A DNA stretch of 64,000 nucleotides. Origin: Gemmatimonadota bacterium (lineage in GTDB: Bacteria > Gemmatimonadota > Gemmatimonadetes > Longimicrobiales > Gaopeijiaceae). Of the stretch, positions 280 to 12,791 are shown piece by piece (within the stretch, counting starts at the first letter, position 1; each line of letters begins with the position of its first letter). Under the pieces are notes generated by a model. That model saw only the letters and a list, made by a program, of their open reading frames with translations. It made no database searches and was not told the origin of the DNA. Location: NCBI GenBank assembly GCA_039589315.1, contig JBDHHQ010000040.1, positions 1-64,000 on the forward strand, given 5' to 3'. Position numbers and translations under genes: made by a program.

Positions 280-2952
280 CTACGTACTGAGCCAGTAGGA
301 CACCTTCAGGAGCAGCACGTTGTTGGGCGGTTGGGCGAACAAGCGATTCACGTCGTCGCCCACCTGGAAGGACCCGTCGTCCACCCAATGATCCCGCGCC
401 TGGGTCCACACCAGGTACACCGCGGAGCCGGGACGGTATTCCCAACGCAGCACCACGTTCGACTGGAACTGCTTGGAGTTGAAGTCGGGGTTGTCGAAGC
501 GGTTGAGCGTTCCGTCCCCATCGACGTCAGCCAGGTAGCCGCCATCGGGATCGGCGACGTAGTCGAGGAGACCGAAGCGATCCGCGTATCGCGCGGCCCT
601 GGGGTCGTCCACCCGTTTGAACGCGGCGTAGGAGCCGGCGCTGACGAACGGCTGCGCGTAGACCTGTAGGGACAGGGTGGGCGTGAAGGCGTAGTTCACC
701 CGGGCGGTGATCCCGACCGTGGTCTGGTCCAGCCGGCCGATAACGTACTCGGGCGTCGTGAGATCGAGGCGCTCGACCCACTGACGGTCGTCGGCCCTCC
801 AGCTCACGAACGGACCCACCGAGAGGCTCGTGCGTCCCGAGGGACGCCACCCGACATGGGCATTGGTGCCCACGTTCCAGGAGTCGCTCTCCGGACGAAC
901 GCCCCAATGGGCCCCAACGCTGAAGCTCACGCTGTTACGGGTGTCGGAGTGCAGCCCGCTCCAACCGTTCCATCCGGCCTCGCGCAGCAGCGCGGGTCCG
1001 CCGCGTAGGGCCCCGGTCGAGAGGGCGGACGTCTGCCGCATGACACCGAGCCATCCTCCCCAGTTGTTGTTCAGGGTGAACGATCCGTTCACGTTGCCTG
1101 CCAGCGACGTCTGCTCGCCCCCAAAGGTGTAGCTGGTCCAGGCGTTCGCGTTCAGGTAGTAGTTCCGGAAGATCCCCGAGGGCTCACTCCGGTGATAACC
1201 GGCCCAGGCCCACGAGGTCACGAAGTCCGCTTCTCGCATGAAGCCCACGTCATTGGGCTCGAAGCCTGGGGATCGGACCTGGGCACCGGTGGAGAAACGC
1301 CAGAAGCCGCCGCCGATCTTGCTCGCCTGCAGGAAGCCGGCCCAGCCGTCGAGGGACGTGCGGTCGGCGTCCAGGTCCACGTGTTCGGCGTCGGGGCGCT
1401 GGAAGTAGCGCGAGGAGGATCGCTGCGTGGCCTCGATGGCCTCGGGGGACCCGCTCACCCGCGAACCGACGGCGTATCCCGAGACCTGAAAGCGGTCACT
1501 GCCGAAACGGTGCCGGAAGTCCAGGCCTCCCGTCACCGCGTTCGACCGCAGGCCGAGAGCCCCGGCCACACCCGCGTCACGTACGACGCCGGTACCGATG
1601 AACCCCACCGCGCTCTTGCCGTCTCGGAAGTCCCGCTGGATGCGGGCGACGCCATAGGCTGTGGCGGGCTCGACCACGTCCTCGAAGCGCTCTCCCTCAC
1701 CCGTGTGCACCCGGGCCTTCTCTTCGCCGGTGAGGGCCGATAGCAGGCCCACCGACCATCCGCTCGACGTCTTGCCCGACACCTTGGCCGCGCCGAGGAT
1801 GCTCGTGAGCTCGGGCACATCGGCGAAGCCCCCCTGCACCTCCGGCGAGCCCTGCGGTGCCCGGCCGATCCGGCGGGAGTAAAAGAGGGCCTCGCCCGCC
1901 CCGTCGCCATCGCCCAGCCCGATGCCGAAGTTGTAGAAGTTGGACCCTTCGACGAAGAACGGCCGGCGCTCGGAGAAGAAGCTCTCGAAGGCCGTGAGGT
2001 TGACCTCGGCCGGATCGGCCTCTACCTGTCCGAAGTCGGGGTTGACCGTCACGTCGAGGGTGAGGTCACCGGTGAGGCCGTACTTCAGGTCTCCCCCCAC
2101 GCTTCCCTGAGCGTACGTCGACCGGTAGAACGGATCGGCAGGGTCTCCCTGGAGGCTCCGGACCTCTGCGACGCTGTAGGGAATCACCTCCAGGCGACGG
2201 GGCGACTGGAGCTCCACGAGTCCGCTCAGCTCTCCGGCTCGCGAGACCATGCCCGCTTCGCGGTTCGACAGGGGAGCCCAGGCCGACGTCTCCCGGTGAC
2301 GCGCGATCTCCCGGGTGAAGTTGATGCCCCAGCTCTGCCGATCGGCACCCCGAAAGCGAAGCTGAGAGAGAGGGATTCGGAACTCAGCCGTCCAGCCGTG
2401 TTCATCTACCGACGCGGCCACATCCCAGACCGCGTCCCAGGTGCGATCCTGCTGGGTATCGTCGAACCGGTAGATATCGGTCTTCACGCCCCGAGGATTC
2501 ACCTCGAAGTGGAAGGCGGTGCGCCGATCGTGGTAGGAGTCCACGACCACGGCCAGGCGGTCCGAGTAGGACTCCTGATCGCGGCGCGTAAGCTGGCCGA
2601 CGATGCTGTCCGGAGCGCTGTCGTAGGCGCGAATGCCCACGTAGAGCGCATCGGCGCCGTAAAGCACGCGGGCTTCAGTCCTTTGCGACGGCAGGGCGCC
2701 CTCGATGGGCTCGAACTGGACGAAGTCCCGCGCTACGGAAGACGTCCCCCACGCTGCCTCGTCCAGGTTGCCGTCGATACGGGGCTCCGCACCGACGATC
2801 CTGCCTGCGGTCAGCACCGGCACGCCCGAGCGGACCGCGCTGCTCGAGGCGGGAGATCCGCCCGCCTCCTCCAGGGCACCCTGTGCGTGCACCGGACCGG
2901 CCAGGGCCACGGCCAGCAGCACACAGCACGCACCAGACACGCTCGACCTCAC
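280..2952 (-). CDS. Exported DUF5916-family protein (CBM9/DOMON-like N-domain plus probable beta-barrel)
   Basis: Signal peptide ending AHA-like (GPVHA-Q); IDGNLDEAAW and TVNPDFGQVEAD/ERRPFF/LFYSRRIG motifs; C-terminal LLKVSYW. Start moved to GTG 2952, which has GGAGG upstream. Confidence 0.85.
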   Translation of the reverse strand: MRSSVSGACCVLLAVALAGPVHAQGALEEAGGSPASSSAVRSGVPVLTAGRIVGAEPRIDGNLDEAAWGTSSVARDFVQFEPIEGALPSQRTEARVLYGADALYVGIRAYDSAPDSIVGQLTRRDQESYSDRLAVVVDSYHDRRTAFHFEVNPRGVKTDIYRFDDTQQDRTWDAVWDVAASVDEHGWTAEFRIPLSQLRFRGADRQSWGINFTREIARHRETSAWAPLSNREAGMVSRAGELSGLVELQSPRRLEVIPYSVAEVRSLQGDPADPFYRSTYAQGSVGGDLKYGLTGDLTLDVTVNPDFGQVEADPAEVNLTAFESFFSERRPFFVEGSNFYNFGIGLGDGDGAGEALFYSRRIGRAPQGSPEVQGGFADVPELTSILGAAKVSGKTSSGWSVGLLSALTGEEKARVHTGEGERFEDVVEPATAYGVARIQRDFRDGKSAVGFIGTGVVRDAGVAGALGLRSNAVTGGLDFRHRFGSDRFQVSGYAVGSRVSGSPEAIEATQRSSSRYFQRPDAEHVDLDADRTSLDGWAGFLQASKIGGGFWRFSTGAQVRSPGFEPNDVGFMREADFVTSWAWAGYHRSEPSGIFRNYYLNANAWTSYTFGGEQTSLAGNVNGSFTLNNNWGGWLGVMRQTSALSTGALRGGPALLREAGWNGWSGLHSDTRNSVSFSVGAHWGVRPESDSWNVGTNAHVGWRPSGRTSLSVGPFVSWRADDRQWVERLDLTTPEYVIGRLDQTTVGITARVNYAFTPTLSLQVYAQPFVSAGSYAAFKRVDDPRAARYADRFGLLDYVADPDGGYLADVDGDGTLNRFDNPDFNSKQFQSNVVLRWEYRPGSAVYLVWTQARDHWVDDGSFQVGDDVNRLFAQPPNNVLLLKVSYWLST

Positions 2953-3452
2953 GACCACCTCCCCACCAGACCCACCGCCCCTGTGCATCAGGCGCCGGCG
3001 AAGCGCCTTCGCCGGCCACCTGGTAAGACGAGGCGAGGCACCCAAAGGTTGCGAGTGACGTGAAACCGATGTCCGGTGGAAGAGGGCGGCGCGCATGAGT
3101 CGGCCCCCGACCGCTCCACCGACCAGTCCGAAGCCGATGCCGAGGCCCAGGAGCGCCATGCACCTGCGATCCAGTGTCCGGAATGGCGTACCGATGGCGC
3201 ATGCCCCGGGGCGGACGCGACCTCGCCTCCTCGGGGGTGCTGCGCCTCTCGCGGCGCTTGCCATGGGGGCGTCCACTCCCCGTAATTGTGGGAGCCCACG
3301 ACGAAGCGCGCCCGGATGCGGAGCTGACCGGGCCCCGTCCGGGTCACCCCGACACGGAAGAGGCCCAGCCCCGCCGAACCGGACCGAGAACTGCCCGGAC
3401 GGACCGGTTCCAGGCGGAGCGCGCGCCCCGCGACTCGAAGGGGAGCTGGCGA

Positions 3453-6400
3453 ATGACGGAGCACTCGGCCCGGAGGCGGATCCGGGCCCTCGTTCAGCGG
3501 CTGTGGCGAGGCCGGGTCTCACACCGCGCGCCTGTCTACGTCGTCCTGGGCGTGGTCGTCCTGGCCGTCGTCCTGTCCGTTCCTGGCCTCCTGGAGGTGC
3601 CCCCGGCCGTGGTCGGGGTCGTGGTCGTGCTGGGACTTCTGGGCGCCCTGGCGCTGGTCCGGGCCACGGAGCGCGCAGCCGGACCGGAGGGTCCGCCGTC
3701 GGCGACGCCCGAGGACGAGGGCCGGCGGGCCCGGGTCGAGGATCTCTTCATCCGGGCCCTCGACGTGCCCGAGACGGAACGGCCCGCCTTCCTGGACGCG
3801 TCGGCGGGCGACGACCCGGAGCTCGCCCGGGAGGTGCGGGCCCTCCTCGAGGCGCATGAGCGCCAGGGCCCTCTCGACCAGCCCAACCAGGCTGCGGCGC
3901 TGCTGGCGGGCGAGGCCCGCTCCGTCGGCGACCTGGAGGGTCAGACGCTGCTCCGCTACGAGATCCTCGAGAAGCTGGGTGGCGGGGGGATGGGCGTGGT
4001 CTACAAGGCCCGGGACACCCAGCTCGATCGGATCGTGGCCCTCAAGTTCCTGTCGTCCCACCTCCTGTCGGACCCGGAGGCCAAGGAGCGCTTCCTGGTG
4101 GAGGCCCGGGCGGCCGCCTCCCTGGATCATCCCAACCTGTGCACCATCCACGAGGTGGGGGAGACCGAGGACGGTCGGCTGTACATCGCCATGGCGTACT
4201 ACGACGGGGAGACCCTGCGTCGACGAATCGCCCGAGGGCGGATACCGTCGGCCCAGGCGCTGGACGTCGCAGCCCAGGTGAGCCGGGGGCTGGCCCGGGC
4301 CGCGGAGGGCGGGGTCATTCATCGGGACGTCAAGCCCGGCAACCTGATCCTCACGGGCGACGGCACCGTCAAGATCGTCGACTTCGGCATCGCCAAGATG
4401 ACGGGTGCCGACCTGACCCAGACCGGCGCCCGCATGGGGACCGTTGCCTACATGAGCCCGGAGCAGGCCCGGGGGGAGCCGGTGGATCAGCGGACCGACG
4501 TGTGGTCGCTGGGGGTGGTGCTGTACGAGATGCTCAGCGGTTCCCGACCGTTTCGCGGCGGCAGCGAAGTGGCCGTCGTCCACAGCATCCTGCACGACCC
4601 CCCGGTCCCCCTGGCCGACCTCGTACCGTCGCTTCACGGCGGAGTCGGCGAGGTGGTGGCGCGGGCGATGCAGAAGGACCCGGCCCGGCGCTACCCGGAC
4701 GCCGCCAGCTTGCTCCAGGACGTCGAGCGCGTCCAGGACGATCCGTCCAGTCGGAGCCTGTTGGACACGGCCCCGAGCATCCCTCCCGAAGGAGAACGGC
4801 GGACCGTCACCGTCGTGGCGTGCTCCGTCAGCGGGTTCGAAACGCTGCTCGAGGCCCTCGACCCCGCCCAGGTCGACCGGGCCCTCGATCGGCTCGAGAA
4901 GCGCGCCCGGACCGTCATGGAGGACTACGGCGGCCTGCTGCACGAATTCTCCGAGGACCGCATCGTGGGGCTGTTCGGAGTACCGCTGACACACGAAGAC
5001 GACGCGCTCCGTGCCGCCCGGGCCGCCCGCGAGCTTCACGCGGCCGATCTCGAGCCGGCCGTCGGCGCACCCGGCGTGCACCTTCGTACGGCGGTGGGCG
5101 CCGAGCGAGTCGCCATCCGGGCGACGGAGGCCGGAGGGCGTCGCTACCGTCTCGGTGGGACCGTGGTCCAGGACGTCCTGCGTCTGGCGTCGGCCGCCGA
5201 TCGGAGCGAGATCCTGTTGACACCGGAGGTCTGCCGCCTGGTCGAGCCGTTTCTGGAGACGGAGGAGCGGGCGCCGGTCCGTATGGGTCCGAACGACCCT
5301 CCGCTCACCCCTCGTGCGGTGGTGGGCGAGTCGGGTCTGGCCAGCCGGCTCGAGGCGTCCGGCGCCCTCACCCGGTTCGTCGGCCGCTCCAACGAGCTCG
5401 CCACCCTGACCCGGGCGCTGGACGGTGCCCGGTCCGGAGAGGGACACGTCGTGTCCGTGGTCGGCGACGCCGGAGTCGGCAAGAGCCGATTGTTGCACGA
5501 GTTCCGGACGCTGCTCACGGACAGGGAAATCCGGTACGTGCAGGGCCGCTGCCAGGCCCACGGGGGCCTCACGCCCTTCTTGCCCTTCAACGAATGCGTG
5601 AAGGCCATGCTGGAGGTGGGGCGGTCCCTTCCCCAGAATGCCCCGGATCTGGTGGCGGAGCGCACACGCGCCCTCGCGCCGGAGCTGGAGGCCTACGTTC
5701 CACTGCTGCTGCACCTCCTCGCCGTCGAAAGCGACCGCTATCCGCTGCCCGACTACCTGGCGGGCGACGACCTCCGGGCAGCGGTGGGAGAGGCCCTGGT
5801 CTCGGTCTTCACCCTGGGGTCCCGCGGGGAGCCGCTGGTCGTGCTTCTGGAGGATTGGCACTGGGCCGACGGGGGCTCGCGGGACGTCCTGCAACAGCTC
5901 GGCGAGATGGTGTCAGCCTATCCCCTCCTCCTGGTCGTGACGTCCCGACCCGCCACGGTCGGAGAGTCTCTGCCACCCCGGGGAGACAGTCATGTGGAGC
6001 TGGCTCCACTGGACGCCGGTGCCGCCGCGGAGGTCATGCGGCAATCACTCGGCGACGTGCGCATCCCCCCGGAGCTGGAGGACAGGATCGCCGAGAAGAC
6101 CGGCGGCAATCCCTTCTTCATCGAAGAGCTCTGCCGGACCCTCCTGGAGACGGGCACGGTCGTGCAGTCGGACGGCGAAGCCGTGCTGGACGGATCGGTG
6201 GAGCGGCTGTCCATACCCGATACGGTGCAGGCGGTCCTGAAGACGCGCCTGGACCGGCTGGACCCGGAGGCCAGGGAGGTGCTCCGCAGCGCCTCGGTCA
6301 TCGGCCGGCGTTTCGGCTCGAAGCTGCTGAGTCGCATCGTCCCGTCGCCGTCCAGACTGGACGCCGCCCTGGACAGCCTGCGGGCCACAGGGCTGATCCA

Positions 6401-8342
6401 ACGCACCAGCCTGCTCCCGGAGCCGACCTACCGCTTCAAGCACGCCCTCACGCTGGACGTCACGTACGAGAGCCTTCTCGAACGGCAACGCCGGGAGCGG
6501 CACGCCCTGGCGGGTGAAGCCATCGAAGCGCTGTACCCGGGCCGCGTCGAGGAGCACTCCGAGCGCCTCGCCGACCACTTCGCCGAGGCCGAGGATTGGG
6601 ATCGGGCGGTTCGGTATGGGCTCCTGGCGGCCGAGCGGGCCGCCGGGCTGTGGCGCCTCGACGAGGCCGTCCAGATGCTGGATCGCGCCCGCGAGTGCGT
6701 CGAGCGCCGGGAGGCGTCGCAGTCCGAAAAGACGGCCACGCTGGTGGCGATTCTGCTCGAGGAGGAGCGTCATCTCGAGACTCTGGGCCGACGTGACCGC
6801 CAGCAGGAGGTCATCGACGAGCTGCTGGCCCTGCTCGACGGAGAGCCCTCGACCGAGTTGGCTCAGGTGTGGGTGCGGCAGGGAGAGCTGTCGACACTGA
6901 CGGCCCGACACGACGAGGCCCACGAAGCGTTCGAGAGAGCCCTGGAGATGGCCTCGGAGCTCGGCGACCTCGGGGTGCGCGTCGTCGCCCTCCGGGCGGT
7001 GGGACACAGCCTCTGGCGGCGTGCCCGCTACCAGGAAGCCGTCGCTCCGCTGCAAGAGGTCGTGGACTGGGACCGAGAGGGGGCTCCGGCGACCGTGCTC
7101 CTGCGGGACCTCGTCAACCTGGGACGGGTCTGGCGGGAGCAGGGAGAGCTGGATCGGGCCCACGCCATCGGGGACGAGGCGTGGGCGTTGGCCGAGTCCA
7201 CGGGGACCCCGCTCGACCGAGTGTACGCCCTCAACTACCGGGGACATCTGCTCAAGACCAAGGGCCGGGGGCCGGAGGCAATCGAGGCCTTCGAGGAGGG
7301 GAATCGCATTGCCGCCGACGCCCGTCTGCCCATGCGGCACGCGTTCAACCTGCTCGCGCTGGCGGCGCTCTACATGGAGCAGGGCCGCATCGACGAATCT
7401 CTGTCGGCTTACGACGAGGCCATCGCGCTGTCGCACCGAGCCAATCGTACGGACGGCGTGGCCCACGCGCACTCGCTGCTGGGTGACGCCCTCATGACCA
7501 TCGGGCGGGCGGACGAGGCGGCCGAACACTACCGCGAGTCGGTGGCCCTCCTGCGTCGCGTCGGCTCGGATCGTGCCCGGTCCGAGATCCTGGGCAAGCT
7601 GGCCGGGGCCCTCGAAGCGACCGGACACGAAGGTGCCGCCGATGCGTGGCTTCGGGCGCGGCGGCTCCGGGAGTCCCTGGGCGACCGCCCCGGCGCGCTG
7701 GTCGCCCTCGAGCACGAGGCGGGACTACGGCGGACCGCGGAGCCTACGGTGGCCCGCGAGCTTCTCCGGAGCGGCGTGGCGCTTGCCCGTGAGCTGGACG
7801 ACGCCGATGCCGAGGCGCGTTGTCGGAACAGCCTCGCGATCCTCGCGTGGCGGCGTGGCGAGCTGGCGGAGGCCGAACGGCAGTACCACGCCGCAACGGC
7901 CCGGCTCCGCGCGTCGGGGGACTCCAGGGAGCTCGGCGGTCTGCTCAACGGACTGGGCGTGGTGCTGACGCGGCTCGGGCGCACGAATGAGGCCCTGACG
8001 ACGCTCCATGAGGCGCTGGAGGCCAACCGCGCCTGGGGGCGGACGGCCTCCGAAGCCGACGGCCTGGCCGCCCTGGGGGCCGCATACCGCGAAGCCGGAG
8101 ACTTGACGCGAGCCTACGATTCGTACCACCAGTGCTTGGAGAAGCGAAGAGAGCTGGGAGATCGGACGGGAGAAGGCTGGGCGCTGCAGAGGTTGAGCGA
8201 GCTCTCACGACGCGCAGGTGCCGGCGAGCGTGGCGACGCGTTCGCGGCTGCTGCCCTGGCGATCGCCAGGGAGATCCACGACACCGAGCTCGAGGCGCTC
8301 TGTCGGAGCACCGCATCCGACGACGCAGATCGCACGGATTGA
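3453..8342 (+). CDS. Membrane-anchored Ser/Thr kinase + class III cyclase-like domain + STAND (AAA_16) NTPase + TPR repeats
   Basis: Two hydrophobic helices; kinase motifs LGGGGMGVVY, VALK, HRDVKPGN, DFG, YMSPEQ; cyclase-like GERRTVTV...LFG.P.THEDD; Walker A GDAGVGKS; Walker B VVLLEDWHWAD; GGNPFFIEE; TPRs. ATG 3453 has GGGAG upstream. Confidence 0.92.
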   Translation: MTEHSARRRIRALVQRLWRGRVSHRAPVYVVLGVVVLAVVLSVPGLLEVPPAVVGVVVVLGLLGALALVRATERAAGPEGPPSATPEDEGRRARVEDLFIRALDVPETERPAFLDASAGDDPELAREVRALLEAHERQGPLDQPNQAAALLAGEARSVGDLEGQTLLRYEILEKLGGGGMGVVYKARDTQLDRIVALKFLSSHLLSDPEAKERFLVEARAAASLDHPNLCTIHEVGETEDGRLYIAMAYYDGETLRRRIARGRIPSAQALDVAAQVSRGLARAAEGGVIHRDVKPGNLILTGDGTVKIVDFGIAKMTGADLTQTGARMGTVAYMSPEQARGEPVDQRTDVWSLGVVLYEMLSGSRPFRGGSEVAVVHSILHDPPVPLADLVPSLHGGVGEVVARAMQKDPARRYPDAASLLQDVERVQDDPSSRSLLDTAPSIPPEGERRTVTVVACSVSGFETLLEALDPAQVDRALDRLEKRARTVMEDYGGLLHEFSEDRIVGLFGVPLTHEDDALRAARAARELHAADLEPAVGAPGVHLRTAVGAERVAIRATEAGGRRYRLGGTVVQDVLRLASAADRSEILLTPEVCRLVEPFLETEERAPVRMGPNDPPLTPRAVVGESGLASRLEASGALTRFVGRSNELATLTRALDGARSGEGHVVSVVGDAGVGKSRLLHEFRTLLTDREIRYVQGRCQAHGGLTPFLPFNECVKAMLEVGRSLPQNAPDLVAERTRALAPELEAYVPLLLHLLAVESDRYPLPDYLAGDDLRAAVGEALVSVFTLGSRGEPLVVLLEDWHWADGGSRDVLQQLGEMVSAYPLLLVVTSRPATVGESLPPRGDSHVELAPLDAGAAAEVMRQSLGDVRIPPELEDRIAEKTGGNPFFIEELCRTLLETGTVVQSDGEAVLDGSVERLSIPDTVQAVLKTRLDRLDPEAREVLRSASVIGRRFGSKLLSRIVPSPSRLDAALDSLRATGLIQRTSLLPEPTYRFKHALTLDVTYESLLERQRRERHALAGEAIEALYPGRVEEHSERLADHFAEAEDWDRAVRYGLLAAERAAGLWRLDEAVQMLDRARECVERREASQSEKTATLVAILLEEERHLETLGRRDRQQEVIDELLALLDGEPSTELAQVWVRQGELSTLTARHDEAHEAFERALEMASELGDLGVRVVALRAVGHSLWRRARYQEAVAPLQEVVDWDREGAPATVLLRDLVNLGRVWREQGELDRAHAIGDEAWALAESTGTPLDRVYALNYRGHLLKTKGRGPEAIEAFEEGNRIAADARLPMRHAFNLLALAALYMEQGRIDESLSAYDEAIALSHRANRTDGVAHAHSLLGDALMTIGRADEAAEHYRESVALLRRVGSDRARSEILGKLAGALEATGHEGAADAWLRARRLRESLGDRPGALVALEHEAGLRRTAEPTVARELLRSGVALARELDDADAEARCRNSLAILAWRRGELAEAERQYHAATARLRASGDSRELGGLLNGLGVVLTRLGRTNEALTTLHEALEANRAWGRTASEADGLAALGAAYREAGDLTRAYDSYHQCLEKRRELGDRTGEGWALQRLSELSRRAGAGERGDAFAAAALAIAREIHDTELEALCRSTASDDADRTD

Positions 8343-8365
8343 GACTTCCACTTCAGGAGCTTGCG

Positions 8366-8629
8366 ATGCCGCGCTACATCATCGAACGGAACATGACGGC
8401 CACGCAGGAGGAGTTCCAAGCCATGGGCAAGGTCTCCGTCCAGGTAGCCGACAGCATGGAGGGCGTGGTCTGGATTCGCAGCTACATCTCGGAGGCAGAG
8501 GGCAAGATCTACTGCGAGTACGAGGCGCCGAATCCGGAAGCCGTCTACGAGCATGCCCGCCGAGTCGGGATCCCCGTAGACAAGATCAGTGAGGTCGCCA
8601 TGGAGGTGGAGCCCTCCATGTTCCGCTAG
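8366..8629 (+). CDS. DUF4242 / SCO4226-like small protein (putative metal-binding)
   Basis: MPRYIIER...WIRSY.SE.EGKIYCEYEAPNPEAVYEHARRVGIPVDKISEV; AGGAG RBS; 23 bp after the kinase stop. Confidence 0.85.
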   Translation: MPRYIIERNMTATQEEFQAMGKVSVQVADSMEGVVWIRSYISEAEGKIYCEYEAPNPEAVYEHARRVGIPVDKISEVAMEVEPSMFR

Positions 8630-8748
8630 GAGCCGGCGCCTGCGCGCCCCGAACCGACCGGGCGCACCCGGTCATGAGACGCCCAGGGTCGTGCCGTACG
8701 AGCGGTAGGGCACGTCTTGGCCATCCACCAGAGGGCCTCTCCATCCGC

Positions 8749-9339
8749 TCAGCGCACGGGGTTGGCCACCTCTCCTGCACGAAACGCCTCGTCGACCCTG
8801 GCGATCACGCGATCCGTGATGTCCAGCTCCGGTCGGCTGAACACGGTCTGCGAGCGAGGCAGTAGGAGATTGACGCCGAGGGTTTCGGCAACCTCGTTGA
8901 TGTAGGGCCGGATGTCGCCATCGAGCTGTGCCGTGAGCCGCGCGACTTCGTTCTGAAACCGCCTCTGGCGCGCGTCCGCGTCCACCTGTGCGGCCTGGAT
9001 CAGGTCCTGCAGAGACTGCTGCCGTTCCAAGAGATCCGCCTCTCTCGCCTGTGCTTCAGCCTCGGCGAGCCCTTCCCGCTCCTCCTGGAACGTTTGAACC
9101 AGCGACTGGAAGTCGGCCTGATTCTGCTCGACCGTGCCTCGTCGCTCGTTCAGCTCGGTCTCGAACTCCGCCTGGAGGGTCTCCAACTGGTTGGACAGGA
9201 GCTGGCCCACGAGGCTCTCTTCGGACACGCGCGCCAGGTCGACGACCGCCACCACGGCCGGAGGCGGAACCGGCTCGCTCTGCTGAGCGGCCGCCGGGGC
9301 CGCGACCAGGGAAGCCGTGAGTATCATCCAACGTCGCAT
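8749..9339 (-). CDS. ompH: OmpH/Skp family periplasmic chaperone
   Basis: Signal peptide, VAVVDL, long coiled coil, C-terminal LDITDRVI. Confidence 0.85.
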   Translation of the reverse strand: MRRWMILTASLVAAPAAAQQSEPVPPPAVVAVVDLARVSEESLVGQLLSNQLETLQAEFETELNERRGTVEQNQADFQSLVQTFQEEREGLAEAEAQAREADLLERQQSLQDLIQAAQVDADARQRRFQNEVARLTAQLDGDIRPYINEVAETLGVNLLLPRSQTVFSRPELDITDRVIARVDEAFRAGEVANPVR

Positions 9340-9444
9340 GTGCCTTCTCCATCTCGGCGGGAGGCGGGGTGACTCGAGGTTCGTCCGGCCCTTACCACCG
9401 CTGCAGGTCCCGCGTTCCGTGCGGCCCGCAGCGGGTTCGTCCGG

Positions 9445-10485
9445 TCAGACGTTGAATCGGACGTGCAGGATGTCTCCGTCCGCGACGACGTACTCCTTGC
9501 CCTCTACCTGGAGCTTGCCGGCGCTCTTCACCTTGGCCTCCGATCCGTGCTCCATGAAGACGTCGTACGGGATCACCTCGGCCCGGATGAAGCCCCGCTC
9601 CAGGTCGGAGTGAATCCGCCCCGCCGCCTTGCGGGCCATGGTGCCTCGGTGGATGGTCCACGCCCGCACCTCGTCCTCTCCGACGGTGAAGAACGAGATC
9701 AGGTCGAGCAGCCCGTAGGCGGCCCGGATGAACCGGTCCAGCGCGGATTCCTCGAGCCCAAGGTCCTCCAGGAACGCGATCCGATCGTCCGGCGCCAGCC
9801 CGGCGATCTCCGCCTCGACGCTCGCCGAAAGGGACAGCCCGCCCGCTCCGAGCTCCTCCCACCGCTGGCTCAGCGGTTCGGGGACCGGAGACGCTGCATC
9901 CTCCTCGCGGCGGTTCAGCGCAACCAGAAGCGGCTTGTCTGAAAGGAGTCCGTACCCCCGGATGAGACCCCTGTCCAGCGCATCGGCATCCAGCGAGCGG
10001 AGGGGACGCTCGTCCTCCAGCGCCTCCTTCATGGTCTCGAAGGCCGCCACCTCCTGGGCGTCGGCCCGTTCCTTCCTGGCCCGATCGAGCCGCCGTTCGA
10101 CGATCTCGAGATCGGCGAAGAGGCACTCGGTGTGGAACGCCTCCAGATCGCCCAGCGCATCCGGCGGATCCTCCAGCGCCGGACTCTCGAAGTCTCGCAG
10201 GACGAGACAGAGCGCTTCCTGGTCCCGAATCTCCTGCAGAGCACGGGGCGACAGCCCCTTCTTCTCGGCACCATGCTCGCCGGGGATGTCGCAGAATGTG
10301 ATCTCGGCGTAGGTCGTCTTCCGGGGTGAGAACACGACCGAAAGAGCGTCGACCCGTGGATCGGGAACGGCAACCGAGCCGAGGCGGACCTCGCCGCCGT
10401 ACCCCACCGGGACGTCCCTCCCGGTCATCGTGTTGAACACTGTGGTCTTTCCGGATCCCGCAAAGCCCACCAGGCCGACCTTCAT
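9445..10485 (-). CDS. ychF: YchF/Obg-family ATPase (atypical paralog, DUF933 TGS domain)
   Basis: P-loop GFAGSGKTT, VPDPRVD, DIPG, C-terminal FFTVGEDEVRAW...IHSDLERGFIRAEV...EGKEYVVADGD. Confidence 0.85.
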   Translation of the reverse strand: MKVGLVGFAGSGKTTVFNTMTGRDVPVGYGGEVRLGSVAVPDPRVDALSVVFSPRKTTYAEITFCDIPGEHGAEKKGLSPRALQEIRDQEALCLVLRDFESPALEDPPDALGDLEAFHTECLFADLEIVERRLDRARKERADAQEVAAFETMKEALEDERPLRSLDADALDRGLIRGYGLLSDKPLLVALNRREEDAASPVPEPLSQRWEELGAGGLSLSASVEAEIAGLAPDDRIAFLEDLGLEESALDRFIRAAYGLLDLISFFTVGEDEVRAWTIHRGTMARKAAGRIHSDLERGFIRAEVIPYDVFMEHGSEAKVKSAGKLQVEGKEYVVADGDILHVRFNV

Positions 10486-10673: not shown

Positions 10674-10997
10674 ATGATCTCACGACCCATGAAGCCTCAG
10701 TGGTACCAGATTCTCCTGGCGCTCTCGAAGCGGGAGCTCCACGGCTACGGCATCCAGCGGGCCGTCCTCGAGCAGACGGACGAGCATATGCGACTCTGGC
10801 CCGCCATGCTGTATCGATCCCTCACGACCCTCGAAGAGGGAGGGTTGATCCGGCAGATCGCGGTTCCCCGCGGCGAGCCGGACGACGAGCGGCGCCAGTA
10901 CTACGCACTGACGCCCGCAGGAGAGGAACGACTGGCCGAGGAAACGGAGATGCTCGCGCGTTGGGTGGCACGGGCCCGAGCCGCCGGCGCCACATGA
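10674..10997 (+). CDS. PadR-family transcriptional regulator
   Basis: ILLAL...HGYGI...LYRSL..LE..GLI...RRQYYALT..G; start uncertain (10674 or 10689). Confidence 0.9.
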   Translation: MISRPMKPQWYQILLALSKRELHGYGIQRAVLEQTDEHMRLWPAMLYRSLTTLEEGGLIRQIAVPRGEPDDERRQYYALTPAGEERLAEETEMLARWVARARAAGAT

Positions 10998-11412
10998 CTG
11001 GTTCGCGGCGCTCTGAACGCGCCGGGCGTCGGTGTGGCTCCTCGCGATCTTCTCCGGCGTCGCCCTGACGCCGGCGGTGACAGGCCTCTTCGGCGTGATC
11101 TCCTACTCCGTCGGCCAGCGCACCAGCGAGATCGGCATTCGCATGGCCCTGGGAGCCCGCCGGGAGCAGGTGCTCCGACAGGTCGTGCGCCAGGGCATGC
11201 TGCTGGTCGCCGCAGGCGTGATCGTGGGGCTGCTCGCCTCCCTGGCCACGGCCCGCGTCGTGTCAGGGATCCTGGTCGGGGTCAGCGCCACGGATCCGGT
11301 CGTGTACGTGGGCGTCACGCTGCTGCTCGTCGCCGTGGCAGCGCTGGCCAACTTCGTGCCGGCTCGGCGGGCGGCTCGGCTCGAGCCCATGGAGGCGCTC
11401 CGCAAGGACTAC
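10994..11412 (+). pseudogene. ADOP/FtsX-type ABC permease remnant (first ~13 codons plus last ~125 codons, out of frame)
   Basis: ATGA overlap with the PadR stop; frame 11032 encodes GLFGVISYSVGQRTSEIGIRMALGA...PARRAARLEPMEALRKD, followed by TAC where a stop is expected. Confidence 0.8.
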
Positions 11413-11528
11413 GGTCGCGGCGACCGAATCTCCGGGCCAAGGGCGCGGGTGGGTGCCAGCGAGACTCGACAGAGGCCACCCCTCCGCTCGTACATTCAGC
11501 AGAAGCGTGTCTCGAGCGGGAGGGTGAG

Positions 11529-12791
11529 ATGGACCGAAGACAGTTTCTGACCACGGGCATGGGGGCCGCGGTGGGCGCCCCGCTGGCCCTGGAAGCCGGC
11601 GCCCGGCGTGGTGCCGCGGTGGGCCGTGCCGGGGCACGCCAGACCCCTGACGAGATCCGCGAGCTGTTCCCGCGCCTGGAGGGTCAGGTGTTCCTCAACA
11701 CCGCAGGCGGAACGCCTCTCGGCTCTTTCGCGCAGGAGGGGCTTCGACGGTACGAGGACTTCTGGACCCACGGACCCGGAGATGGACGGGGCGATTACTT
11801 CCGCGAGATGCTCACGGGAGTGCGTGGCCGCATCGCCGGCCTGATCGGCGCGGATGCGTCGGAGGTGGCGCTCGTCCACTGCACCAAGGAGGGAGAGCAG
11901 ATCGTTCTGGACGGGCTGCCCTCGCTGTGGAGCGGGGCCAACCTGGTCACCAACGACCTCCACTTCGCGGGTTCGCTACACAATCTGCTGGGCCTCGGGG
12001 ACGCGGGCATGGACGTCCGCATCGTCCGCAGCCATGGCTTCGACCTGCAGCTCGAGCAGATGGCGGAGGCCATCGACGACCAGACCGCCCTCGTGTCCGT
12101 GACGCTCGTGTCCAACGTGAACGGCCGGATCGAGCCCATGAAGGAGCTCGCCGCCCTCGCGCATGCGCACGGCGCCTACGTCTATGCCGATGTGATCCAG
12201 GCCGCCGGGATCGTCCCGTTCGACGTCCACGACCTGGGCATCGACTTCGCCGCCGGGAACGGATACAAGTGGCTGTTCGGCCCCCACGGCACCGGATTCC
12301 TGTTCGTCCGACGGGAGCTGCAAGGCTCGGCGCTGACCGATCGGCTGTTTCCAGGCCATGCCCGCCACAACTACCGCCCCTGGATCGCGGAGCCGGTGGC
12401 CGGACAGGCCGACTTCGTCGTCCGGGACCCGGACGATGCCCGCCGGTACGAGCCGGGCCATCATGCGTACCTGTGCTACGCCGCCCTCTACGAGGGACTC
12501 GGCTTCGTCGAGGAGATCGGTGTGGAGGCCATGCGCGACCATGCGGTCGGTCTCGCCGGGAGGCTCAAGGACCGCGTCGATCCGGACCGCTACCCTTGCG
12601 TCTCGCCCCACACGGATCGGTCCCCCATCGTGACCTTCACCACGGGGCATTCGCCCGAGGGCCTCGGGGAGCGCCTGAGCGCGGAGCGCATCGCCGTGGC
12701 GCTGAGTCCGGGCCGAATCCGGGTATCCCCGGCCATCTTCAACACGGCGGACGACGTGGACCTGTTGGCCGACGTGCTGAACCGCGCCTGA
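11529..12791 (+). CDS. Class V PLP-dependent aminotransferase/lyase with Tat signal
   Basis: MDRRQFL twin-arginine signal; FLNTAG, D..QAAG and YKWLFGPHG (PLP lysine) motifs; IRVSP. Confidence 0.88.
   Translation: MDRRQFLTTGMGAAVGAPLALEAGARRGAAVGRAGARQTPDEIRELFPRLEGQVFLNTAGGTPLGSFAQEGLRRYEDFWTHGPGDGRGDYFREMLTGVRGRIAGLIGADASEVALVHCTKEGEQIVLDGLPSLWSGANLVTNDLHFAGSLHNLLGLGDAGMDVRIVRSHGFDLQLEQMAEAIDDQTALVSVTLVSNVNGRIEPMKELAALAHAHGAYVYADVIQAAGIVPFDVHDLGIDFAAGNGYKWLFGPHGTGFLFVRRELQGSALTDRLFPGHARHNYRPWIAEPVAGQADFVVRDPDDARRYEPGHHAYLCYAALYEGLGFVEEIGVEAMRDHAVGLAGRLKDRVDPDRYPCVSPHTDRSPIVTFTTGHSPEGLGERLSAERIAVALSPGRIRVSPAIFNTADDVDLLADVLNRA

What the first reader, a model, noticed from the sequence alone, without database searches (positions are those of the whole stretch)
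3453..8629. Candidate signalling or immunity system: TM-kinase-pseudocyclase-STAND-TPR giant protein plus a DUF4242 partner
Seen: one 1629-aa protein with two TM helices, an intact Hanks kinase (about 3957-4740), a class III cyclase-like domain (about 4790-5330), a STAND NTPase and a long TPR tail. An 87-aa DUF4242 gene follows 23 bp later. Known: effector-STAND-TPR is the NLR-like layout used by bacterial sensors and Avs defence proteins. SCO4226 (DUF4242) binds nickel, and from memory DUF4242 also occurs fused to cyclase domains. Inference: TPR ligand binding could oligomerise the STAND domain and activate the kinase, with DUF4242 acting as substrate or metal-sensing co-regulator.
Basis: partly seen in the sequence, partly recalled or inferred. 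Interest (0 to 1): 0.72.

Follow-up and report, generated by a model that had tools for sequence, protein, structure and literature searches.

The report
NLR-like sensor kinase with dedicated partner
A giant bacterial protein with an intact kinase, a dead cyclase domain, an ATP switch and a repeat tail is almost always encoded next to one tiny partner gene; the partner likely serves the repeat tail as a sensing input, and in most relatives the kinase likely switches on a neighbouring sigma factor, so this looks like a new wiring of a known signalling route rather than nickel sensing or phage defence.

Summary
Observation confirmed: one 1629-aa ORF (TM hairpin, intact Hanks kinase, class III cyclase fold lacking its first metal Asp, intact STAND, TPR) and a DUF4242 gene 23 bp later. 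The pairing is strongly conserved: 18 of 18 intact relatives with downstream DNA, and 76 of the best 80 partner-type DUF4242 loci.

The partner follows the TPR, not the kinase. Four kinase-less genes keep this TPR and DUF4242; four close STAND relatives with another TPR lack it. SCO4226's nickel ligands are not conserved, and neighbours are not defence-rich.

In 44 of 64 informative relatives an ECF43-type sigma gene sits directly upstream, tied to a PknS-like N-terminal helical segment, and a conserved TGAGCC-N17-GC(C/T)T site precedes neighbouring flavoenzyme genes. This window keeps the segment but has no such sigma gene or site, so its output is open.

The scan found the two-gene unit before on another genome (e1-2191723), and ECF43 plus soluble kinase-STAND-TPR modules twice more. 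Verdict: new variant of a known kind; interest 0.5.

The parts
3453..8342 (+). Gene for the 1629-aa TM-kinase-pseudocyclase-STAND-TPR protein (P0001)
3534..3659 (+). Predicted two-helix membrane hairpin (res 28-69), a worn copy of an N-terminal module found in 59 of the 66 closest homologues; 21 other ORFs of this genome carry the module
   Evidence: P0001 itself scores only 5 bits on the module profile
3732..3869 (+). PknS-like N-terminal helical segment (res 94-139), likely ECF-sigma docking element
   Evidence: 9EED; presence tracks an upstream ECF gene in relatives
3957..4748 (+). Hanks-type Ser/Thr kinase with K198, E217, HRD 290-292, N297, DFG 310-312, PE 336-337 intact
4785..5357 (+). 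Class III cyclase fold, predicted inactive (S458 for the first metal Asp, Q573 for Asn; D502 and R577 kept)
5358..6629 (+). STAND NTPase module: Walker A GxxGxGK677S, Walker B E800-D801, R832, GNPFF 885-889
6630..8339 (+). TPR superhelix of about 570 aa; its clade predicts the presence of DUF4242
8366..8629 (+). DUF4242 (PF14026) of a partner-specific subfamily with invariant S42, E51, E80 and C-terminal P83-x-M85-F86
3079..3165 (-). Remnant of an ABC permease gene that lies intact between DUF5916 and the kinase in the same-genus genome G301; no ECF gene there either

Best explanation
This is a conserved two-gene unit in which the small DUF4242 protein likely acts as the input partner of the TPR tail of a cytoplasmic STAND switch, whose activation would turn on the intact kinase, which in most relatives likely phosphorylates a neighbouring ECF43-type sigma factor. 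Shown: the anatomy; intact kinase and ATPase motifs; loss of the first cyclase metal Asp; near-obligate gene pairing; DUF4242 following the TPR clade across kinase, active-cyclase and HTH-like N-termini; the ECF gene and a conserved promoter-like site in relatives. Inferred: DUF4242 binds the TPR, as a ligand-loaded activator or as a brake released by a small molecule; ATP binding assembles the STAND domain, as in other STAND proteins; the pseudocyclase serves as a dimer or scaffold domain bringing kinases together; the phosphorylated sigma transcribes a flavin oxidoreductase that would act on the inducing compound. In this genome the sigma gene and its site are absent from the locus while the docking segment and a membrane anchor remain, so the kinase would act in trans on one of the other ECF43-like sigma factors or on other substrates, or the output arm is decaying.
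For: Forward test: 15 of 15 intact kinase-cyclase-STAND-TPR genes among the 19 best hits in 301 phylum genomes, plus 3 of 3 in metagenome loci, have DUF4242 directly downstream; of the other 4, three are cut by a contig end and one has no kinase and another TPR. Reverse test: of the best 80 of 245 matches, 76 lie within 94 bp of this TPR, 1 at 902 bp, 1 precedes the ECF-kinase pair, 2 have no upstream DNA. TPR dependence: among 84 STAND ORFs with at least 500 bp downstream, 18 of 18 with TPR-profile score 258 or more have DUF4242 and 0 of 66 scoring 82 or less do. Kinase-less L157, L175, G599 (intact cyclase motifs) and G1017 (HTH-like N-terminus by eye) keep TPR and DUF4242. L034, L035, L038 and L120 group with L157 in the STAND tree (support 0.994), L034 is 56% identical to L157 up to the TPR, yet they have another TPR and no DUF4242. 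TPR-first searches of two other phyla (401 genomes each): 8 of 8 new STAND-bearing hits have DUF4242 (one repeats L143); the one hit without STAND has none. Output arm: segment present with ECF upstream 44, segment without ECF 4, neither 15, ECF without segment 1; two of the five discordant cases are frameshift artefacts (L166; L125). The sigma factors pass TIGR02999 (2 of 2 tested) and 44 of 46 have the sigma-2.2 Thr that is phosphorylated in EcfP and EcfK (PMC8999054, PMC13147305, passages). TGAGCC-N17-GC(C/T)T precedes 32 of 39 flavoenzyme genes, scores 20 bits or more in 32 of 40 ECF-bearing loci, 4 of 20 scored as ECF-less (one is L125) and 0 of 32 control loci.
Against: All support for a DUF4242-TPR contact is genomic; no fusion of the two was found (longest of the best 150 profile hits is 224 aa; 6 longer hits, none with TPR). 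The TPR profile was built from paired loci and kin are not independent, so the counts overstate. L175 has a frameshift inside its TPR. In this window there is no ECF gene and no promoter site in 2700-3600 or 8300-9500; G301 also lacks the ECF; none of the genome's ECF43-like sigma factors groups with the module's sigma factors with support; and the genome's homologues of the FAD-oxidase and lipoprotein targets have no site upstream. Fifteen relatives lack both ECF and docking segment, so the ECF arm is dispensable. Most of the promoter-positive loci were in the training set; 13 of 16 loci inspected separately, chosen as mostly held-out, scored 20 bits or more.
Confidence: 0.55

Rival explanations
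1. DUF4242 does not bind the sensor; it is a small ferredoxin-fold enzyme or carrier that makes or removes the small molecule the TPR senses.
For: It would equally explain why DUF4242 follows the TPR clade. The ferredoxin-like dimer fold (PMC4186839) is shared with small enzymes (recalled). H63 (74 of 75), C50, W36 and E51 are conserved. The likely targets are flavin oxidoreductases acting on small molecules.
Against: W36, C50 and H63 are shared with the general, unpaired DUF4242 subfamily, while the subfamily-specific invariants cluster in the C-terminal tail (E80, M85, F86), which fits a docking peptide better (inference). The TPR model resembles peptide-binding TPRs such as LGN.
Confidence: 0.2
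2. An Avs-like anti-phage system: the TPR senses a phage protein and the kinase arrests the cell.
For: NLR-like effector-STAND-TPR layout and fold similarity to CED-4/Apaf-1/NRC3; patchy distribution (1 of 40 nearest relatives); EcfK/PknS itself drives an anti-predator response (PMC13147305, abstract).
Against: The 25 PADLOC families shown for P0001 (of 34) are all kinase-region matches, none Avs. 5 of 150 neighbour proteins from 20 loci hit PADLOC at 1e-15; two are small-molecule methyltransferases; no background rate was measured. No defence family among 57 predicted window genes by Pfam. Recurrent neighbours are a sigma factor and flavoenzymes. The TPR keeps many invariant residues across phyla.
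Confidence: 0.1
3. DUF4242 is the kinase's substrate.
For: S24 (74 of 75), S39 and S42 (75 of 75) are conserved; 15 relatives and this window have no adjacent ECF, so some other substrate is needed there.
Against: The same DUF4242 type stays with four kinase-less genes and is absent beside three other kinase-STAND genes with a different TPR (L094, L109 with downstream DNA; L062 cut).
Confidence: 0.08
4. DUF4242 is a nickel sensor that gates the kinase.
For: It belongs to PF14026, whose one studied member binds four Ni per dimer with Kd 10 uM (PMC4186839).
Against: Ni-1 ligands D43, S46, H76 align to S42, E45, S75 and E74 to K73; 52 of 75 partner sequences have a single His; NF033706 score 32.3 against cut-off 125; the SCO4226-type rows lie on a long separate branch; no nickel genes among recurrent neighbours.
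Confidence: 0.07

Closest known systems
ECF43 sigma / Hanks kinase pairs: EcfK-PknS (Xanthomonas citri) and EcfP-PknT (Vibrio parahaemolyticus)
   Same: Hanks kinase with the PknS-like N-terminal helical segment; in relatives an adjacent TIGR02999 sigma with the sigma-2.2 Thr and no anti-sigma among recurrent neighbours.
   Different: PknS senses through a periplasmic TPR region behind a TM helix (PMC13147305, passages). Here nothing hydrophobic follows the kinase; the sensor is a cytoplasmic pseudocyclase-STAND-TPR with a separate DUF4242 partner. This window has no adjacent sigma.
Cyclase-STAND-TPR proteins (SWACOS-type STAND; definition recalled from Leipe et al. 2004, the name seen only in passages of PMC8195603 and bioRxiv 10.64898/2026.01.04.697583)
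   Same: Same cyclase-STAND core, 28-46% identical, with the same Walker A, Walker B and GNPFF motifs.
   Different: Those keep the first cyclase Asp in 54 of 59, against 0 of 66 in the kinase clade; they mostly lack the kinase, carry other TPRs and have no DUF4242 (0 of 66).
TOMM system kinase/cyclase fusion protein (TIGR03903)
   Same: Kinase-cyclase-STAND order; match over residues 194-1205, E 5e-131.
   Different: 438.7 bits against cut-off 705.75; no TOMM biosynthesis family among window genes or recurrent neighbours.
SCO4226 nickel-binding protein (PF14026, PDB 4OI3/4OI6)
   Same: Same Pfam family; only PDB sequence match (E 0.0017).
   Different: Separate subfamily without the nickel ligands, with its own invariant C-terminal PxMF tail, and found almost only beside this TPR.
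Avs and other defence STAND systems
   Same: Effector-STAND-TPR layout.
   Different: No Avs model among the PADLOC hits shown, no defence-rich neighbourhood, and a transcriptional output arm.

Membership tests
STAND NTPase | Walker A GxxGxGK[ST], Walker B acidic pair, conserved Arg, GxP motif in the helical domain | tested here: met
   G671...K677-S678, E800-D801, R832, GNPFF 885-889; K677, E800, R832 and GNPFF in 65 of 65, D801 in 63 of 65
STAND NTPase | STAND fold followed by superstructure-forming repeats | tested here: met
   model matches CED-4, Apaf-1, NRC3; TPR model pLDDT 95
STAND NTPase | ligand- and ATP-driven oligomerisation | not testable with these tools
   inferred from the family
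SWACOS clade | phylogenetic placement with reference SWACOS NTPase domains | not tested
   no reference set was fetched; assignment rests on the recalled architecture
Active class III nucleotide cyclase | class III catalytic fold | tested here: met
   Foldseek to 2w01, 3r5g, 1wc1, target TM about 0.8
Active class III nucleotide cyclase | two metal-binding Asp | tested here: not met
   first Asp is S458, and D in 0 of 66 relatives; second is D502, D in 31 of 66
Active class III nucleotide cyclase | transition-state Asn and Arg | tested here: not met
   Q573 for Asn; R577 kept
ECF43-associated kinase (PknS/PknT type) | intact Hanks catalytic motifs | tested here: met
   K198, E217, D292, N297, DFG, PE present in every aligned row of 66 (64-65 rows, rest gaps)
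ECF43-associated kinase (PknS/PknT type) | N-terminal helical extension before the kinase | tested here: met
   res 94-139 match PknS 11-55, E 0.003
ECF43-associated kinase (PknS/PknT type) | adjacent ECF43-type sigma gene | tested here: not met
   absent in the window and G301; present in 45 of 64 informative relatives as scored
ECF43-associated kinase (PknS/PknT type) | TM helix and extracytoplasmic sensor C-terminal to the kinase | tested here: not met
   no hydrophobic segment after residue 69
ECF43-associated kinase (PknS/PknT type) | phosphorylation of the sigma-2.2 Thr | not testable with these tools
   Thr present in 44 of 46 neighbouring sigma sequences
TOMM kinase/cyclase TIGR03903 | score over the curated cut-off | tested here: not met
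   438.7 against 705.75
PF14026 (DUF4242) | score over the gathering cut-off | tested here: met
   85.8 against 28.5
SCO4226 nickel-binding family NF033706 | score over cut-off and Ni ligands D43/S46/H76 | tested here: not met
   32.3 against 125; S42/E45/S75
Avs anti-phage STAND | match to an Avs model | tested here: inconclusive
   none among the 25 of 34 PADLOC families shown
Avs anti-phage STAND | defence-rich neighbourhood | tested here: not met
   5 of 150 neighbours from 20 loci; none by Pfam in the window
Avs anti-phage STAND | protection from phage | not testable with these tools
   needs a phage challenge

The most novel reading that the evidence does not exclude
The TPR plus its DUF4242 partner form a portable two-part receptor, a separately encoded co-receptor for a bacterial NLR-like sensor, that has been plugged onto kinase, active-cyclase and HTH-like outputs; in its commonest form it makes a complete cytoplasmic pathway from an NLR-like switch to sigma-factor phosphorylation to an enzyme that removes the inducer.
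Probability: 0.3. Interest if true: 0.75.

Novelty: new variant of a known kind. Interest (0 to 1): 0.5.

Why it matters
It would give a DUF4242 subfamily a function other than nickel binding, and extend ECF43 sigma phosphorylation, so far shown for membrane receptor kinases, to a cytoplasmic NLR-like sensor. The four-gene relatives come with a predicted promoter, a predicted phospho-site and a target enzyme, so each step can be tested with a small reporter. Natural swaps show which domains go together. I found nothing on this system in print (full-text searches: DUF4242, 4 papers; SCO4226, 6; SWACOS, 9; STAND+cyclase+kinase+TPR+ECF, 0; pseudocyclase terms, 0), but the library lacks most subscription papers, including Iyer et al. 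2020, whose kinase survey may list such architectures.

Tried and rejected
Complex prediction of TPR with DUF4242 was not available; nothing was folded, so there is no result either way. No RNA holder was listed for the locus. No partner-type DUF4242 in viral contigs (0 of 46 pattern matches). No DUF4242 fusion to STAND or TPR in two searches; tandem DUF4242 repeats exist. The in-frame ECF-kinase join in L125 differs from L209 by a frameshift and was not used as fusion evidence. The idea that G301's extra 2.35 kb held the lost sigma gene was wrong: it is an ABC permease. The best genome-wide promoter hit lies beside the kinase-less ECF on contig C46, but its -10 reads GCATC, it flanks glutamine synthetase and ammonium transporter-like ORFs (named by eye), and that sigma does not group with the module's; not accepted as the partner. 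A TTGCCA-17-(C/T)GTAAT block upstream of the kinase is shared with G301 but fails the sigma-70 scan; no terminator after DUF4242. The TPR-DUF4242 distance correlation (r 0.66) is expected from shared descent and was given no weight. The DUF4242 tree is the quick one; the careful search did not finish. Pairing with the pseudocyclase, suggested by DUF4242-cyclase fusions, was rejected because three paired genes have intact cyclase motifs and close cyclase-STAND relatives lack the partner.
Full report
Observation. The ORF 3453-8342 gives 1629 aa with two N-terminal hydrophobic helices, a Hanks kinase, AAA_16 and TPRs. Residues 445-635 have no Pfam hit in this protein, but the predicted structure matches class III cyclases, and the following part matches STAND proteins. 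DUF4242 follows 23 bp later and is the genome's only copy. The genome is 6.67 Mb and 67.5% GC; named close homologues are mostly Gemmatimonadota.

Which parts work. Among 66 de-duplicated intact relatives, every aligned row keeps the main kinase catalytic residues and all keep Walker A Lys; the other STAND motifs are near-invariant in 65. The first cyclase metal Asp is Asp in 0 of 66, against 54 of 59 kinase-less controls. So kinase and ATPase are predicted active and the cyclase inactive. With both hydrophobic helices at the N-terminus and a very short loop, everything after residue 70 would be cytoplasmic (inference).

The pairing. In 301 phylum genomes PF14026 occurs in 89 and the cyclase-STAND query hits 42 at 1e-40; unpublished genome G157 enters these tallies only. 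Of the 19 best hits other than this genome, 15 are intact kinase genes and all 15 have DUF4242 directly downstream. Three are cut by contig ends, with a partner-type DUF4242 on another contig (behind a matching TPR tail in two). One has no kinase, another TPR and no DUF4242. Three of three intact metagenome loci are paired too. The partner is a distinct subfamily. Scanning 185,579 genomes with it gave 245 matches; I examined the best 80 (54 titled Gemmatimonadota by my count, the rest Acidobacteriota, Gammaproteobacteria, Bacteroidota and others; MAG labels may be wrong). 76 lie within 94 bp of this TPR type, one at 902 bp, one precedes the ECF-kinase pair, two have no upstream DNA. A few loci repeat between the two sets. 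Among 40 nearest relatives only the same-genus G301 has it, so the unit is patchy.

What the partner follows. In loci found by the cyclase-STAND query, DUF4242 is present in 18 of 18 with a TPR-profile score of 258 or more and 0 of 66 scoring 82 or less (84 ORFs with at least 500 bp downstream; ORFs cut closer were dropped). TPR and kinase are confounded in that set, but natural swaps separate them. L157, L175 and G599 have a zinc-ribbon-like N-terminus and intact cyclase motifs, no kinase, this TPR and DUF4242; G1017 has an HTH-like N-terminus (by eye), no kinase, this TPR and DUF4242. L175's STAND falls outside the paired clade, whereas L034, L035, L038 and L120 group with L157 yet carry another TPR and no DUF4242 (FastTree, midpoint root, deeper nodes weak; L175 has a frameshift in its TPR). 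TPR-first searches in two other phyla gave 8 of 8 new STAND-bearing hits paired. DUF4242 therefore belongs on the sensing side. Whether it binds the TPR or makes its ligand is open, since no complex could be predicted. Its subfamily-specific invariant C-terminal tail and the TPR's conserved charged residues in 1094-1230 are the obvious contact candidates (inference).

Nickel. SCO4226 binds Ni through H76, D43, S46 and others (PMC4186839; I read parts 2 and 3 of 5 of the text). These align to S75, S42, E45 here and are not His/Asp in the subfamily. A DUF4242-cyclase fusion exists (L224) but in the SCO4226-type branch.

The output. Clustering neighbours showed an ECF sigma in 37 loci, an acyl-CoA-dehydrogenase-fold flavoenzyme in 30, an FAD oxidase in 8 and a lipoprotein-like gene in 11. 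The sigma passes TIGR02999 and keeps the sigma-2.2 Thr in 44 of 46, the site phosphorylated in EcfP and EcfK (PMC8999054 and PMC13147305, passages; PMC7826278 passages list the kinase-linked ECF groups). Residues 94-139 match the N-terminal helical segment of PknS. That segment and the upstream sigma occur together or not at all in 59 of 64 informative loci (loci with under 1.3 kb upstream and no ECF, and four duplicates, were dropped; kin are not independent); two of the five exceptions are frameshifts. A de novo motif TGAGCC-N17-GC(C/T)T precedes 32 of 39 flavoenzyme genes, recurs before lipoprotein genes and the sigma operon in loci outside the training set, and reaches 20 bits in 0 of 32 control loci. 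The targets resemble small-molecule flavin oxygenases and oxidases (EncM, nitrososynthase, DszC-type), which points to a chemical rather than a phage cue (inference).

This copy. The window has the docking segment and a worn membrane hairpin but no sigma gene and no site nearby; G301 has an ABC permease at that place, of which the window keeps 87 bp. The genome has 11 ECF43-like sigma ORFs, three without an adjacent kinase, none grouping with the module's. The segment is 84% identical to the closest homologue against 90-94% for the other soluble domains, so it is kept but looser. The output here is unresolved.

Defence. PADLOC matches to P0001 are kinase-region only among the 25 of 34 families shown. 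Of 286 predicted non-kinase neighbours I scanned 150 from 20 loci: 5 hits, of which two are small-molecule methyltransferases, two a type I R-M fragment in one locus and one a partial MADS match. No background rate was measured. The window's other genes are stress, detoxification and transport types.

Comparison and novelty. It works like EcfK-PknS but with a cytoplasmic NLR-like sensor in place of a periplasmic one, and adds a dedicated DUF4242 partner. It fails the cut-offs of TIGR03903 and NF033706. Literature searches found no description (listings only, except the papers named above, PMC8195603 and bioRxiv 10.64898/2026.01.04.697583, of which I saw passages). Iyer et al. 2020 was not held, and I did not open supplements of the ECF classification or the STAND survey, which may list this clade. 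The scan noted the two-gene unit on another genome and ECF43 with soluble kinase-STAND-TPR twice; these are leads, not support. Verdict: real, conserved, a new variant of a known kind; interest 0.5.

Noticed in passing
window 10689-11547: PadR gene followed by only a C-terminal FtsX fragment (172 aa); G301 has a 923-codon permease-like ORF in the corresponding region (L132:5773-8541), so this looks like a second permease deletion in this genome.
   Followed up: partly
window 283-2922 (-): Divergent CBM9-like plus DUF5916 gene with a signal-peptide-like start; the real start is near 2940, not the GTG at 3522.
   Followed up: no
L212 (G000:C46:26000-32200): ECF43-like sigma with no adjacent kinase, flanked by TGAGCC-N17-GCATC sites, ahead of glutamine synthetase-, ammonium transporter- and glutaminase-like ORFs (named by eye); a possible nitrogen regulon.
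   Followed up: partly
G000 genome-wide: 21 ORFs carry the same two-helix N-terminal membrane module, three in tandem on C149; it looks like a mobile anchor shared by many signalling proteins.
   Followed up: no
L127:4792-10575: A relative with an alpha/beta-hydrolase-like region in the same frame ahead of the kinase, no ECF gene, and the most divergent DUF4242.
   Followed up: no
L221:4461-5571 (-) and P0129, P0134, P0136: Adjacent or tandem-fused DUF4242 domains, some with signal-peptide-like N-termini.
   Followed up: no
L002-L031: The commoner DUF4242 subfamily of this phylum (ending IDPTTAE-like) is highly conserved; its gene neighbours were not annotated.
   Followed up: no
L047, L054, L070, L080, L088: Tandem arrays of two to four cyclase-STAND-TPR genes.
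   Followed up: no
L187:5656-7979 and L208:7099-7774: L187 has lost cyclase and STAND by an internal deletion but keeps sigma, target and DUF4242; L208 has an unrelated insert between TPR and DUF4242.
   Followed up: partly
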